DNA of 64,000 nt, from contig NC_043013.1 in the NCBI RefSeq assembly GCF_006345805.1, positions 2,604,001-2,668,000 of the forward strand, read 5' to 3'. The notes beneath the pieces were generated by a model. It was not told the DNA's origin. It was given only the letters and a program-made list of their open reading frames with translations, and made no database searches. The translations under genes and the position numbers were made by a program. Origin of the DNA: Octopus sinensis. Lineage: Eukaryota. Shown here piece by piece: positions 7,899 to 59,949 of the stretch; position 1 is the first letter of the stretch; each line of letters begins with the position of its first letter.

Positions 7899-8600
7899 AT
7901 TAATCAATATAGGGTGGCAAAAAATTTTGTAGAATTTTTTTGCCACCAGCGGCCTAGTGGGAAAAAATTAAATAGTCATAGACCATTTATAAGTTCAACA
8001 TCAACAATCAAGGAACGGCCATAATAGGCCATTCACCCACTAGAAATAACAGCCAAAGCTTCAACCGCAAAATAACATTAATTCCGCAAACCAGGAGAAA
8101 ATTAAAAAACATTTACCCTGTAATTTCTTATACGATGCACCGTTTCATCTACTGTTTAATGGTAAACTAACCTGATTAAATTAAATCAAGCCAATCTTCC
8201 ATAGGCCCTTAGATTCGTCAGTAAGAAATAGCCAGATCGGAACAGATATTTTCACGAGGCATTTCTGTCCCTGCCTCGGCAATATCTGACCTAAAATTTT
8301 CAAATCATCGCACTCGCGCCAAATTTATCGGCAGCAAATAAATATAAGCCGCCGATTCCATTACGGAATCAACCAGAAAATTCATAATTAATCAATATAG
8401 GGTGGCAAAAAATTTTGTAGAATTTTTTTGCCACCAGCGGCCTAGTGGGAAAAAATTAAATAGTCATAGACCATTTATACAGGGTAAATGTTTTTTAATT
8501 TTCTCCTGGTTTGCGGAATTAATGTTATTTTGCGGTTGAAGCTTTGGCTGTTATTTCTAGTGGGTGAATGGCCTATTATGGCCGTTTCTTGATTGTTGAT
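7899..8600 (-). mobile_element. Non-coding Penelope-like pseudo-LTR insert (direct + inverted repeats, hammerhead)
   Basis: 93-bp identical direct repeat 7899-7991/8387-8479; 121-bp inverted repeat 8000-8120/8480-8600 (1 mismatch); internal hammerhead; (AT)n on both flanks. Confidence 0.8.
8123..8229 (-). ncRNA. Type I hammerhead ribozyme, core intact
   Basis: Minus strand: ATTTCTTA-CTGACGA-ATCTA...TAGAT-GAAA-CGGTGCATCG-TA-TAAGAAAT; 8-bp stem I, 5-bp stem II, near-palindromic stem III, GUA cleavage triplet. Confidence 0.85.
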
Positions 8601-8654: not shown

Positions 8655-9589
8655 ATATATATACACACATATATATGTATATATGCATGTGTATGTATAT
8701 ATACATCCGTGTGTGTGTGCGTGTGTGTGTGTATGTGTATTGCGAGTGATTATATTAAACCATTTATGGCAGAAGCGCAGTGCCCAGTGATGGGCGGGGT
8801 TACAAATTGAACCTTTATTAATTGTACAACAGATACAAATCTTCTTTCTTAATATTACATAATCAGGAGATAAGTATGTGTTAAATTCCATCAAAGTTTT
8901 GGTGAAGGAAGGTTTATCTATAAATCAGATGAAGTGTCTTTAAATGAGTGACGGTAGCAGCATTGTGCAAGAAGATATTTCAAATACTTTAGTGCAGGCC
9001 CAAACTTTGTTTGTATGGTTGATCGGGATTTTGGGTGATGAGACATCTTTGGATCAAGAACAAGAAGACCTTGATTTGCTCCGCATCCTTTCTTAAGCAC
9101 AGATGCCATGTTTCGTCATTAAACTGGTACCACCCTATTATTGTTTCTGGCGCCGCCAAGTCAGCTCTGACTGAGGAGACTTATAGTTAAAAACATTTTA
9201 GCGTTGAACATATATATTTTGTATATCAAGGACTACATTTTCCAGTAAATCATTTTCTTTTCAGGACAGTAGAGAGAATTTGAAGGAATTTCGCAGCTAT
9301 TTCTAGCTGGTCGAGTCATCATAGACTCCCTCTACCTCGTTTAGTATTTGTAGAGTGAGATGGCATTAGATGTGCATTGTTCATGAATAGCGTAATTCCT
9401 AAAGGTTGAATGAAAGTATGCACGTCTCCTTATCCTAGTCAACGTCTAAGATTGTATTGTTCAGGATTAGATGTGGATTTGTAAATCTACAGACGTGAGA
9501 TATATTATCGGTTAAAGATATCGCAGTCGTTAGTGATTCAGAGAAGCCGAGTATCAGTGACCAGGTCTTAAGGAAAGACCCTGATATAA

Positions 9590-28711: not shown

Positions 28712-29012
28712 GAGATATATGTCCCACTTGAACATGAATTTAGTTTTCAACAGGAATCTTCCGTGTTATACGTTTCTTCTGAAATAACAGCCAAACCTTC
28801 TTGAAATCAGACCCTGCAGTTTTGATGAGGAAGTGTTGGAGATAGTGACACAGGACACGTGTAAGATGTTATTGTCATAGTTGGAGTGTCTACTCGGGGA
28901 GGATCGACCTGAGACAAAACAGTGGAAACAAATATTTACTGATGTAATCAATACACTCACGTCGTCATGGAAATTGAGATGACTGAAATAGTAGTAGTCG
29001 TAGTAGTAGTAT

Positions 29013-36443: not shown

Positions 36444-36888
36444 ATATATATAGATGCTGGGGCTGCAGTATAGCAATAATAGCCAAAACAAATAGTAACT
36501 GCAACGATAATAAAATTCAACAAGAAACCACTACAACTACAATGACAGACACCACCACCATTTCAACCGCCCCCTCCGCCGCCGATAACACTACCACCTC
36601 CACCCGACTAGCACCACAAATATCACCACCACCAATACTGCTGTCACAACAACCACCGCCGCCGCCATTAATAACAACAAGATCTACGAGTACGAACCAA
36701 TGAAGGAGCCTGTATATGGTCACCCTAACAGTTAGAAATAGCAGCTAAATCCACCCTGATGTCACTTCCAAGTAAAAACTAAGCTAAGAGCATTAGATTT
36801 CTTGGAAGAAAGCATCGAATGTATACGAAAACAAGGACAGCAAAACAGACGATGTTACACGAATATATATGCAAAATACAATAAAATG

Positions 36889-52203: not shown

Positions 52204-52349
52204 ATATATATATCTGTAATATAATATGTGACAATTATTCGGTTGCCATAATAAAACTCCGATTTCGGCATCTCGTCAGTTATCAAGGCAATCAAAAAAG
52301 GGTCTCATTCATTCTTTTGTTGTTATACTATTACTATTAATATATATGT

Positions 52350-56755: not shown

Positions 56756-56824
<69 letters not shown>

Positions 56825-56830
56825 GTTATT

Positions 56831-58322
56831 GCTTTTGCATGGCTTCTAATGCTGGAGATGTATTACAGTGTCAGCTGTTCACTAACAGTGAACTAAGGTA
56901 ACACTCCTTATTTTTCGAGCACCTTCCGGAATATTCGAGCGGTGCTGTTTTCTGTAAGTGCTCCACCCTTATTGCTCCATGAACTTCTCAAAATTTTTGT
57001 TCACTGTTCCCAGGGCTCCGACAATTATTGGTACTACCAACACCTTTTTCAGCGACCATAACTGCTTAACCTCCCAAGCTAACCTGTTATGCCTATCAAT
57101 TTTCCTTTCTTCCTTATCGCATACCTTGTCATACCTTGGGCATGCTAGATCTATGACCCAGCATAGTTTGCATTCTTTCCCAATTAACACTATGTCTGCT
57201 TTTCTATTCTCTATCTCATGGTTACATTGAATCATAAAATCCCACAGGAACTTTACATTATCATTTCCGATGATACCTTCGGGTTTATGTTCGTACCACT
57301 TTTTTGCTCTGTCAAGTCCATACTTGTTGCAACGTGTCCAATGCACTATCCTTGCTATATTGTCATGACATCTCTTATATTCTTTCAGGGCTAGTAGCGT
57401 ACATTGACTGGTAATCTGCCATACGGTTTCACCATTTTGTTCACAAATTCTGTATTTATCACTTTCTAATGTGTTGTCTATTCCGTATTTGATGTAATTT
57501 GATGTTACGCTTGCTCTTGGGCAGCACAAATTAGAGCTTCCGTTTCCGGCTTTAAATCACTTTTAGTTATCGATAGCCATTTTTTTTTCTCTGTCTGTCT
57601 TATCTTTAACGTCTCTATGAAATTGTCCATGTATTCTTTACTTTATCCACCTATTTTCGGTTTCGTTCATTCTCAAATCCTTGTACAATGTTTTATCTTT
57701 GCAATCTTCTATCCTGCACAAGCCTGACCTTCTTATTTCCAATAATAGCGATTCTGTGGCATTTTTTTTACATACTATTCTATGTTGTGTTTTTTCTGCT
57801 CTTATGCTATGTTCGCATCCAATCAGTCTTATTTCCCCACTTTTTCTTTGTACATACAGTCTGTCTGTGTCACTTTTTGGGTTGAGTATCCCATATCTAG
57901 TCAGCAACTTCCTTGTCTTTCTGTCTAAGCTGTTTAGTTCATCTACTGTAGTTACCCCTGCTCCATATCTAAGGAGCGAAACCGCTCAGGTGTTGATAGC
58001 TTCACACTTATTTCGTCCGTTTAATTTCGACTTAAGAATCAGTCTCAGTCTGCGCAAGTACTCCACCTTAATTTTTTCTGTCATTTCTTTCTCCATCAAT
58101 TTATCCATTTCCAGTATCCCCAAGTACTTATAGCCCGTCTCTTCTATCTGCTTCATGACCTCCCCCGACGGTATTGCTAGCCTGTCCACACATTTGATTT
58201 TGCCACTTTTAAAGACTAACACACCTCATGTTTTCAGTCCGAACTCCATTCTCATATCAGCACTGAAAGTATACACTTTATCAACGAGGGAACTGACTTA
58301 GGATTCATCTTTACTATAAAGT
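56831..58322 (-). mobile_element. R4/Dong-type non-LTR retrotransposon, 5'-truncated, in (TAA)n
   Basis: RT end (DMRMEFGL, GYKYLGILE, YLRRLRLILKSKLNGRN), DTDRLYVQRK, decayed CCHC (RICEQNGETVWQITSQC), REL domain (LWDFMIQ, ADIV, IDLACP, VPIIVGALGTV); TTA repeats on both flanks. Confidence 0.9.
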
Positions 58323-58348
58323 TGTTGTTGTTGTTATTATTATTATTA

Positions 58349-58393
<45 letters not shown>

Positions 58394-58428
58394 TATTATT
58401 ATTATTTATTATTATTATTTTATTATTA

Positions 58429-58460
<32 letters not shown>

Positions 58461-58491
58461 TTATCATTATTATATTATTATTATTATTATT

Positions 58492-58522
<31 letters not shown>

Positions 58523-58670
58523 TATTATTATTATTCATTATCATTATATTATTATTATTGTATTATTATTATTATTATTCTTATTATATTATTAGTATTA
58601 TTATTATTATTATTATTATTATATTTTATTATTATTATTATTATTATTATTATCATTATATTATTATTAT

Positions 58671-58800
58671 TGCTTTTGCCACAGCTTCTAACGCTGGAGA
58701 TGTACTACAGAGTCAGCTGTTCGCTACCAGTGGACTAAGGTAACACTTCTTATTTCTCGAGCACCTTCCGGAGTATTCCAGCGGTTCCAAGCAGTGTTGC
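58671..58800 (-). mobile_element. Second 3'-end copy of the same Dong-type LINE
   Basis: gcttttgcc..gcttctaacgctggagatgta..gagcaccttccgga aligns with 56831-56945. Confidence 0.85.
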
Positions 58801-58811
58801 TAGAGAAGATG

Positions 58812-59685
58812 ATCAATAATAACAAAGGGTAAAATTAATTAATTAATTAAGTAGTAATCAATAATTTCACCAAGTAGAATTCGGCATGAAAAAGGACCAT
58901 TTCACGGTAAACTTAAGTAATACTTTATATTTAGGGTTCAGCAAAGATTTGCTTTACTACAGTTGTTTGTTTTTTCCGGGTGTCCCTTTTTAAAGTAGAG
59001 GAAATAGCTAAGGTTTTTTGGCTGCTATTTCTAAATTTTGCTATGTGGTAAAGCAAATCTTTGCTGAACCCTAATTATAAAGTATTACTTAAGTTTACCG
59101 TGAAAATGTCCTTTTTCATGCCGAATTGTACTTGGTGAAATTATTGATTACTACTTAATTAATTGATTTTACCCTTTGTTATTATTGATAATATAATTTT
59201 CTCCCAGATAATAAACTACAGATTTTTTTCTGTAGTATTTTACTTGACGACAGACGCGGATGGGCAGGGGAGGGTGATGAACCTCATTCGTATATTTTTA
59301 AATTCGGCGGTACTAACGTTGAATATGATCTGTCTGATACGGTTAGTTGGAGAGATATGTTCAATTCTTCCAGTGCCTTTGAATTAAATATTTTTAATAT
59401 TTAATATTGTTGAAGTCCCATGCTGATGAAGAAAATGGTTGGGTAAAGTAGAATTCTATATTCTTTATATATCGATCTAATTCCGAAACGCGTACATGGG
59501 TAATCAAATATCGATTGATTTTCGTTATTTTTCCTCCCTGCTTGCGTGGATTGTTTTCAAGTACTTTGTTTTTTCCGTGAGTCCCCTTTTAAAGTAGAGG
59601 AAATAGCTAAGGATTTTTGGCTGCTACTTTTAAACTTCGGTATGTGGTAAAGCAAATCTTTGCCGAACCCTCAATTATAAAGTAT
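58812..59685 (+). mobile_element. Non-coding Penelope-like pseudo-LTR insert (inverted + direct repeats, hammerhead)
   Basis: Inverted arms 58812-58961 / 59044-59189; direct repeat 58966-59085 / 59565-59685; ends in (AT)n. Confidence 0.8.
59417..59500 (+). ncRNA. Type I hammerhead ribozyme motif
   Basis: CCCATG-CTGATGA-agaa...ttcc-GAAA-CGCG-TA-CATGGG; 6-bp stem I, palindromic minimal stem III, weak stem II. Confidence 0.75.
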
Positions 59686-59800
59686 ATATATATATATATA
59701 TAATTAATCCAAAAATGAACAAAGAGAAAACACAACAATGTGAGGATGTGGAACAAGTATAGTGTTATTGGACGCTCAAGAAAGGAAAGAAAGAAGGAGG

Positions 59801-59835
59801 ATTTGACGTTTCGAGCGGAGCTCTTCGGCTGAAAC
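59801..59835 (-). ncRNA. Decayed minimal hammerhead in an (AT)n-flanked insert (59700-59910)
   Basis: Minus: GTTT-CAGCCGA-A-GAGCtccGCTC-GAAA-CG-TC-AAAT; sister copy at 63057-63150 (+) retains CTGACGA but is truncated before GAAA. Confidence 0.6.
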
Positions 59836-59907
59836 ATAGAAAAAAAAGGTCCAAGGAAGGGAGACGGAGAACTAAAGTCGCCAACGATACACACGCGATC
59901 ACATATT

Positions 59908-59949
<42 letters not shown>

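What the first reader, a model, noticed from the sequence alone, without database searches (positions are those of the whole stretch)
58812..59685. Second, unrelated pLTR-architecture insert with its own hammerhead
Seen: the same architecture (inverted ~150-bp arm, ~600-nt unit, ~120-bp direct terminal repeat, (AT)n end) but a different sequence. Its hammerhead, CCCATG-CTGATGA...GAAACGCGTA-CATGGG, has a minimal palindromic stem III and a long stem II insert. The repeats are more diverged, so this insertion is older. Inference: an independent Penelope-like family using the same integration mechanism.
Basis: partly seen in the sequence, partly recalled or inferred. Interest (0 to 1): 0.7.

Follow-up and report, generated by a model that had tools for sequence, protein, structure and literature searches.

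The report
Non-coding Penelope-type retroelement carrying hammerhead ribozyme
This 0.9-kb insert is a decayed copy of a repeated, non-coding element that contains a complete hammerhead-ribozyme core; it was likely pasted in by the enzyme of a Penelope-like retrotransposon, which makes it a further member of a known kind of genomic parasite.

Summary
58809-59685 has a 153-nt inverted arm, a 599-nt unit with a 120-nt direct repeat, a (TA)n right end and a type I hammerhead with all core bases (0 of 5000 shuffles give one). Helix III is the palindrome ACGCGU, so it would cleave as a dimer. No PLE protein remnant was found. Contigs of 4 runs (3 organism labels) show a multi-copy family. Most copies are short 3' fragments. 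A recurrent 3' end lies at 59085/59685, and the arm marks a second one at 59192. This copy carries about 4-6% non-majority letters and is older than the window's first insert. Two corrections. (1) 'Unrelated' is too strong: both inserts share a 17-nt motif 41-52 nt before the first 3' end, followed by a structured tail of about 105 nt; a published octopus Naiad ends similarly. (2) Restoration of GGAA/TTCC in the consensus was not seen among the 40 of 108 variant rows shown, so it is unresolved. Verdict: a new member of the known non-autonomous Penelope-like/non-LTR retrozyme class. The lead worth following is which autonomous enzyme moves it.

The parts
58809..58961 (-). Inverted, 5'-truncated copy (42 nt of repeat A plus the whole tail); its 3' end (second terminus, unit position 59192) faces outward and forms the left end of the insert
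   Evidence: 92.8% to 59044-59192; core 58812-58956 has 5 mismatches in 141 columns
58966..59085 (+). Upstream pseudo-LTR repeat A, 5'-truncated at 58966, ending at the first 3' terminus
   Evidence: loose (AT)n ends behind 59085 in 17 contigs (X1) and 23 contigs (X2)
59017..59033 (+). 17-nt motif shared with the window's first insert; 3' arm of a hairpin predicted at 58994-59042
59086..59192 (+). 107-nt 'tail' between the two 3' termini; two predicted hairpins
   Evidence: fold z = -4.18, 0 of 200 shuffles as stable; copied into the inverted arm
59193..59416 (+). Non-coding middle of the 599-nt unit; a 70-codon open stretch (59192-59401) has no PLE protein relative
   Evidence: 1-3-nt indel variants in other copies
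59417..59500 (+). Type I hammerhead: 6-bp stem I, intact core, 55-nt helix II region with an imperfect core-proximal pair, palindromic helix III ACGCGU, GUA cleavage triplet (predicted cut after 59494)
59565..59685 (+). Downstream pseudo-LTR repeat A', ending at the first 3' terminus; motif copy at 59616-59632
59683..59702 (.). (TA)n target microsatellite at the right junction
58671..58796 (-). Left neighbour, not part of the element: 3' fragment of a non-LTR retrotransposon with a (TAA)n tail, also present at 56830-57556
   Evidence: 58700-58785 vs 56858-56943, 89.5%; loose ends at 58796
59703..59909 (-). Right neighbour: stretch between two (TA)n tracts with a decayed minimal-hammerhead-like motif (core starts at 59831), tail-to-tail with this insert

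Best explanation
The insert is a decayed copy of a multi-copy, protein-less 599-nt unit with one hammerhead core, and it was likely inserted by a Penelope-like reverse transcriptase/GIY-YIG enzyme supplied in trans, copying a predicted tandem or circular RNA. Shown: the 1.2-unit direct part, the inverted arm, two 3' ends 107 nt apart, the (TA)n junction, the intact core, and a family dominated by short 3' fragments. Inferred steps: (1) Read-through or tandem transcripts are cut at GUA/59494 by hammerheads that pair helix III in trans, and may be ligated into circles. (2) The enzyme binds the post-cleavage region (motif hairpin plus tail) and nicks AT-rich DNA. (3) One DNA end primes at the first internal site (59685) and copies 720 nt, past the ribozyme and into the next unit; this makes the pseudo-LTR. 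(4) The other DNA end primes at the second site (59192) and stops after about 150 nt at the base of the motif hairpin; this makes the inverted arm. (5) The two cDNAs are joined head to head. This copy has since decayed by about 4-6%, and its own ribozyme is probably weak or dead.
For: Architecture and chance test. Contigs from 4 of 4 runs lie on the stretch (1981, 3264, 2332 and 495 laid, mostly 90-99% alike). Summed depth is flat over 59218-59476, 4.1-4.4 times higher just past the ribozyme, and 10-37 times higher on the tail; (AT)n loose ends recur at 59085. That is the 5'-truncation gradient of a retroposed family. Diverged contigs cross the A/tail junction (record 26, 58992-59132). Variants at 59199/59206 (up to 44 contigs per run), a 59183-59224 deletion joint and record 27 tie the tail to the middle, so the 599-nt unit is native. 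A and A' share two non-majority letters 599 apart (58977/59576, 59000/59599), as expected for one template lineage. Opposite-strand joints in other copies lie at different places (58982/59197, 58986/59442, 59042/59632, 59055/59230), so the arm is not a fixed terminal repeat. The arm's inner end (59044) and a joint found in 3 of 4 runs (59042) coincide with the base of the predicted hairpin at 58994-59042. Helix III is self-complementary (-7.5 kcal/mol duplex), and the +CG variant (12-43% of depth) keeps the palindrome. Literature: internal RT initiation at two sites and cleavage/extension of both strands by a PLE protein (PMC11167929); inverted copy, tail and (TA)n (PMC8557442); dimeric palindromic hammerheads in PLEs (PMC4209133); retrozymes as non-autonomous PLE derivatives of 51-972 bp (bioRxiv 10.64898/2026.07.22.740005).
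Against: No autonomous partner was found, no whole second copy was seen (no listed contig spans the stretch), and no cleavage was shown. The hammerhead region folds no better than shuffles (z = 0.21 and -0.15). In a 200-nt context stem I has about zero pairing probability; it does form in a 103-nt window and in the circular whole-unit fold. The core-proximal helix II pair is A.C or an offset G-C, and restoration in the family was not seen. Majority letters stabilise helix II only modestly (-1.8 kcal/mol; 69 of 1000 controls do as well) and do not stabilise the A repeats (593 and 351 of 1000). Contig depth is not a copy number (tool's warning). There is no (TA)n or target duplication at the left end. 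In PAc, ribozyme cleavage was not needed for insertion in vitro (PMC11167929), and 8 of 9 predicted Xenopus retrozyme dimers did not cleave (bioRxiv above).
Confidence: 0.75

Rival explanations
1. The insert is the 5'-truncated 3' end of an autonomous PLE whose long 3' UTR/pLTR forms the 599-nt repeat, or the result of two RT rounds; the coding part simply did not reach this site.
For: Most PLE insertions are 5'-truncated partial tandems (PMC8557442, PMC8969392 passages). Depth falls 10-37-fold between the tail and the middle, which could mark where a more abundant partner diverges from this unit. 766 loose-end rows were not shown.
Against: Tail-to-middle continuity is seen in diverged contigs and depth is flat across the middle. 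In an autonomous element the post-ribozyme leader runs into the ORF; here it runs back into the same unit. No protein relative was found (the 3 weak hits are unrelated repeat/Ig-domain proteins).
Confidence: 0.12
2. The mechanism is as in the best explanation, but the hammerhead is a vestige in the whole family: the RNA is not self-cleaved, and tandem read-through RNA is the template.
For: No G10.1-C11.1 restoration was seen; folding support is weak; ribozyme mutants did not affect PAc insertion in vitro (PMC11167929). This rival overlaps the best explanation in everything but the cleavage step.
Against: No variant of a core base or of stem I is among the 40 substitution rows and 12 indel rows shown, apart from the palindrome-preserving +CG. 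A 4-fold depth step lies across the cut site in 4 of 4 runs, although resolution is only 37 nt and it sits on a rising gradient.
Confidence: 0.3
3. The element is a DNA-level repeat (MITE/foldback element or locally duplicated satellite) that happens to contain an old ribozyme.
For: It has inverted arms. One opposite-strand joint (59042/59632) recurs in 3 of 4 runs at raised depth, so some inverted forms may themselves have been amplified.
Against: The arm pairs with an internal segment, not with the far end (only 43 nt match the right end); breakpoints vary; the polar 3'-to-5' coverage gradient and (AT)n-joined 3' ends point to reverse transcription.
Confidence: 0.05

Closest known systems
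Non-LTR retrozymes of animals (Cervera & de la Pena 2020, PMC7229834; Li, Clavereau & Pollet 2026, bioRxiv 10.64898/2026.07.22.740005)
   Same: Non-coding unit with one type I hammerhead, low GC (33%), more-than-unit-length head-to-tail copy, proposed PLE-driven mobility; 599 nt lies inside the reported 51-972 bp range.
   Different: Only 1.2 units and one ribozyme here, so it is a monomer, not an 'active' dimer by Li et al.'s criterion. It carries the full PLE junction signature (inverted arm, second 3' end). The unit is longer than the ~300-bp monomers of the 2020 paper, and helix II is 55 nt.
EN+ Penelope-like elements (Penelope/Poseidon, Neptune, Nematis; PAc of Anolis, PMC11167929; hammerheads PMC4209133)
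   Same: Pseudo-LTR, adjacent inverted truncated copy, optional tail at one end, AT-rich target, hammerhead upstream of the internal 3' termini, short palindromic helix III, an extra nucleotide after A9.
   Different: No ORF. The tail is 107 nt, against the 30-40 bp usually described. Helix II is far longer than the 6-8 bp of the published minimal PLE hammerheads.
Naiad PLEs, including Naiad_Ovul and Naiad_Obim (Craig et al. 2021, PMC8557442)
   Same: (TA)n preference and the same tandem/inverted structure. Naiad_Ovul has TGGCTGTTATT about 35 nt before its 3' end (supplement). Several Naiads have hammerhead cores split by 35-50 nt ('HHR_half_core').
   Different: Naiads are autonomous (3.4-4.4 kb), reported to lack canonical hammerheads and to be long inactive in cephalopods. 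No similarity beyond the 3'-terminal ~50 nt was noticed by eye.
Non-autonomous Chlamys elements such as MRC1 (PMC8557442 passage)
   Same: [quoted passage not shown]
   Different: Algal, and Chlamys elements mostly lack canonical hammerheads.

Membership tests
Penelope-like element (structural signature) | Pseudo-LTR formed by a partial tandem with 5' truncation | tested here: met
   A and A' 599 apart; 5'-truncation gradient in the family
Penelope-like element (structural signature) | Inverted 5'-truncated copy adjacent to the upstream pLTR | tested here: met
   58809-58961; other breakpoints in other copies
Penelope-like element (structural signature) | Optional 3' tail at one end (30-40 bp in the literature) | tested here: met
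   Present only on the arm end, but 107 nt long
Penelope-like element (structural signature) | AT-rich/(TA)n target | tested here: met
   Right junction and (AT)n loose ends at 59085; not seen at the left junction
Autonomous Penelope-like element | ORF with telomerase-like RT and GIY-YIG endonuclease | tested here: not met
   Six-frame translation; the longest open stretch on the + strand (70 codons) has no Pfam or PLE hit
Type I hammerhead ribozyme | Core C3-A9, G12-A14, A15.1-U16.1, H17 with stem I | tested here: met
Type I hammerhead ribozyme | Helix II closed by G10.1-C11.1 | tested here: inconclusive
   This copy has A.C, or a G-C next to an A.C mismatch; the family state is not visible (40 of 108 variant rows shown)
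Type I hammerhead ribozyme | Self-cleavage activity | not testable with these tools
   needs in vitro transcription
Non-LTR retrozyme | Non-coding unit with a type I hammerhead | tested here: met
Non-LTR retrozyme | Tandem array of two or more units, each with a complete hammerhead | tested here: inconclusive
   Not at this locus (1.2 units); other loci could not be read whole (no genome held; short contigs)
Non-LTR retrozyme | Circular RNA intermediate | not testable with these tools
   Only contigs were available
Naiad-dependent non-autonomous element | 3' end shared with an autonomous Naiad | tested here: inconclusive
   Short motif match to Naiad_Ovul near its 3' end, compared by eye only

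The most novel reading that the evidence does not exclude
The two sequence-unrelated hammerhead elements of this window are ribozyme-bearing parasites of one enzyme, a Naiad-type PLE that itself lacks a canonical hammerhead. They are recognised through a shared TGGCTGYTATT hairpin motif 35-52 nt before the RT start, with a second start about 105 nt downstream. That would define the cis-signal for PLE internal priming, show that hammerheads ride on PLE machinery rather than serve it, and reveal a class of long-helix-II hammerheads that short-spacer descriptors and Rfam miss.
Probability: 0.15. Interest if true: 0.6.

Novelty: new member of a known kind. Interest (0 to 1): 0.3.

Why it matters
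As it stands, it adds one more non-autonomous PLE/retrozyme family, probably in an octopus. My searches returned no paper describing hammerhead-bearing non-autonomous PLEs there. It is useful because it links the retrozyme-type unit to the complete PLE junction signature (two internal 3' ends, inverted second cDNA), which supports the recent claim that animal retrozymes are moved by PLE enzymes. The shared sub-terminal motif gives a concrete, testable candidate for the RNA signal that a PLE reverse transcriptase recognises.

Tried and rejected
No whole genome is held, so copies could not be read whole. Pattern scans for relatives: metagenome contigs gave 13 loci and viral contigs 5; all 18 are GC-rich chance hits without similarity to either insert. 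The terminal motif gave 0 hits in genome contigs and 0 in viral contigs. Earlier-findings look-ups returned nothing, 4 of 4. Rfam gave no hammerhead. The 70-codon frame 59192-59401 was rejected as an ORF remnant. Expression: no RNA holder listed; run X10 is only guessed to be RNA, so its coverage is not used as evidence of transcription. A full-text search for the motif string returned CRISPR-scaffold-type papers only (20 of 759 listed). Alignments of the two inserts that used the decayed A' copy were not significant (623 and 226 of 1000 shuffles). Window motif hits at 9289, 28779, 36471 and 36733 were not shown to be PLE ends; the two that were folded (9289, 36733) do not give the motif hairpin. 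Exact strings of this element's ribozyme were absent from the Naiad/Chlamys/Hydra supplement, and the single hits lay in unrelated contexts. The test that majority letters restore structure was null for both A repeats and marginal for helix II (69 of 1000), tail (38 of 1000, and still 1.5 kcal/mol less stable than this copy) and middle (66 of 400).

Full report
Setting. The window is microsatellite-rich animal DNA without long genuine ORFs. I take it for an octopus from SINE-like repeats that I recall; no call names the organism.

Observation. Self-comparison gives an inverted arm 58809-58961 that is the reverse complement of 59044-59192 (92.8%), and a direct repeat 58966-59085 / 59565-59685 (90.9%, period 599), followed by a TA run. 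The direct part is therefore 1.2 copies of a 599-nt unit: A, tail, middle, hammerhead, linker, A'. The hammerhead has a 6-bp stem I, CUGAUGA, a 55-nt helix II region, GAAA, the palindrome ACGCGU as helix III, and a GUA triplet. A strict descriptor finds it once in the window and in 0 of 5000 shuffles of the 720-nt direct part. A looser scan also finds the first insert's ribozyme at 8221 on the minus strand, with a 68-nt helix II region, and one poor third candidate at 52279. Rfam misses both ribozymes.

Age. Direct repeats differ at 10 of 120 positions here and 0 of 93 in the first insert (p=0.006); arms differ at 5 of 141 and 1 of 123 (p=0.22). Against the majority letters listed, this copy differs by 4.2% (A), 4.7% (tail), 4.0% (middle plus ribozyme) and 5.8% (A'). 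That count uses 32 of the 40 rows shown; I left out 3 flank rows, 3 arm rows and 2 rows with mixed or about 50% shares. Even decay across regions, and two non-majority letters shared by A and A', fit one insertion event followed by neutral decay. The runs may be of other individuals or species (no run holds half of the words), so these figures are rough.

Family. Twenty runs from 10 studies hold part of the stretch; I laid 4 of the 24 listed. All four give hundreds to thousands of short contigs, mostly 90-99% alike. Summed depth is flat over 59218-59476, 4.1-4.4 times higher at 59514-59550, and 10-37 times higher on the tail, then drops at about 59190-59218. Depth here is no copy number, but the shape is the same in all four runs and is that of 5'-truncated retroposed copies with fixed 3' ends. 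One end is seen directly: (AT)n loose ends behind 59085 in 17 and 23 contigs. The other is inferred from the arm's outer end (59192) and the depth drop. Diverged contigs cross the A/tail and tail/middle boundaries, so the unit is native. Opposite-strand joints at several other positions show that inversion breakpoints vary; one, at 59042/59632, recurs in 3 of 4 runs, next to this copy's arm end (59044) and the base of a predicted hairpin at 58994-59042. Heterogeneous loose ends before 58994 in 4 of 4 runs mark the other side of that hairpin as a frequent truncation point. Of the loose-end rows, 24 were shown and 766 were not.

Coding. No frame of the unit is open for more than about 70 codons on the + strand. 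That stretch has no Pfam family and no longer relative; three weak hits are unrelated repeat or Ig-domain proteins. Other copies carry 1-3-nt indels in it. The element is non-autonomous.

Ribozyme status. Helix III cannot close as a monomer (2-nt loop) but is self-complementary (-7.5 kcal/mol), and a +CG variant in 12-43% of depth keeps the palindrome, though slippage would do the same. Dimeric cleavage is the described behaviour of PLE hammerheads (PMC4209133, parts 1-2 of 4 read; PMC6765202, passages; Lunse et al. seen only as a citation there). The weak point is the base of helix II: AGAA faces UUCC. Either A59430 is a mutated G10.1, or it is the extra nucleotide typical of PLE hammerheads and the mismatch lies one step further out. 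No substitution at 59430-59432 is among the 40 of 108 rows shown; every row shown reaches about 60% or more in at least one run, which hints, but does not prove, that no strong majority restores GGAA. A C inserted after 59430 holds 11-15% of depth in three runs. Two majority letters further out (59451, 59472) stabilise helix II by 1.8 kcal/mol, which 69 of 1000 random controls match. The region folds no better than shuffles, and in a 200-nt context stem I is not formed. In the A59430 register the positions for the loop 1/loop 2 U-A contact (U59501, A59480) are present; that contact is recalled, not tested. Activity is unresolved.

Relation to the first insert. Overall alignment finds only a 17-nt match, TTTGGCTGYTATTTCTA (score reached by 55-60 of 2000 shuffles; found post hoc). 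Its placement agrees, however: 41 vs 52 nt before the first 3' end, followed by a tail of 101 vs 107 nt to the second end, and both tails fold well (z -3.52 and -4.18). The first insert uses the two ends the other way round: the arm stops at end 1 and the body at end 2. In the supplement of Craig et al. 2021, GGCTGTTATT occurs once in 584,047 characters, about 35 nt before the 3' end of Naiad_Ovul; Naiad_Obim has a near match. Among the 45 Naiad 3' ends displayed (of about 54 records), I saw TGGCTG near the end in two more, both ostracod families, which is close to chance. Several nematode Naiad ends there show hammerhead cores split by long helix II regions, which the authors list as HHR_half_core. 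This is a lead, compared by eye, not a test. Against it, the paper calls cephalopod Naiads long inactive, while the first insert is young; O. vulgaris has 31 recently active Penelope-like families (PMC13282606, passages), any of which could be the driver.

Mechanism. PAc protein starts reverse transcription at two internal sites downstream of the hammerhead, which explains the optional tail, cuts AT-rich DNA and extends both strands (PMC11167929, parts 1-2 of 4 read). Applied here (inference): one DNA end primed at 59685 and copied 720 nt of a tandem or circular RNA; the other primed at 59192 and stopped after about 150 nt; the products were joined head to head (the first insert shows a 2-nt overlap at that joint; here decay hides it). 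The left junction lacks (TA)n and abuts a 126-nt 3' fragment of a non-LTR element, so no target duplication can be read.

Comparison. Pseudo-LTRs with inverted copies and tails (PMC8557442, 12 of 19 passages plus supplement look-ups; PMC8969392, passages), hammerheads in PLEs, and non-coding hammerhead units moved by PLEs (PMC7229834, passages; bioRxiv 10.64898/2026.07.22.740005, parts 1-3 of 5 read, supplements closed and possibly listing comparable families) are all described. It works like a non-autonomous PLE/retrozyme. It fails membership of autonomous PLEs (no ORF) and is a monomer by the tandem criterion for retrozymes. Unusual details are the 55-nt helix II region and the ~105-nt tail. 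Literature searches cover open-licence papers only; Repbase and Dfam could not be checked, so the family may already be catalogued.

Verdict. Observation confirmed; interpretation partly supported; new member of a known kind; interest 0.3. The novel case (shared cis-signal, hammerhead parasites of a Naiad-type enzyme) has probability 0.15 and interest 0.6 if true.

Noticed in passing
window 7899-8600 (- strand): The first insert is nearly undiverged (direct repeat 93 of 93, arm 122 of 123), has (TA)n on both sides, a 488-nt period, and a hammerhead with an A-U pair at the base of a 68-nt helix II region and a near-palindromic 12-nt helix III; it folds at z = -3.3. It is the better candidate for a cleavage assay.
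   Followed up: partly
window 59703-59909 (- strand): A third, decayed minimal-hammerhead-like motif (core CAGCCGA, GAAA-CG-TC, start 59831) lies between two (TA)n tracts, tail-to-tail with the studied insert; possibly a third PLE family using the same microsatellite.
   Followed up: partly
window 56760-58796 (- strand): Two nested 5'-truncated copies of a non-LTR retrotransposon with (TAA)n tails. The frame 56972-57556 looks like a CCHC plus restriction-like endonuclease end (Dong/R4 label recalled); relatives are unnamed proteins, one with RT domain PF00078.
   Followed up: partly
window 9289-9305 (+), 36733-36749 (-), 28779-28795 (-), 36471-36487 (-): Further near matches to the shared 17-nt motif (8 matches in the window against 0.02 expected, 4 of them in the two inserts); they may be ends of other repeat families.
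   Followed up: partly
unit positions 59042/59632 (joints): A recurrent opposite-strand joint in 3 of 4 runs suggests either a fold-back hot spot or an amplified palindromic sub-family.
   Followed up: no
PMC8557442 supplement, 3' ends of nematode Naiads: Several ends show CTGAYGA ... GAAA with paired helix II ends 35-50 nt apart and what looks by eye like complementarity between loop II and the flanks; they may be real long-helix-II hammerheads in a clade described as lacking canonical ones.
   Followed up: no
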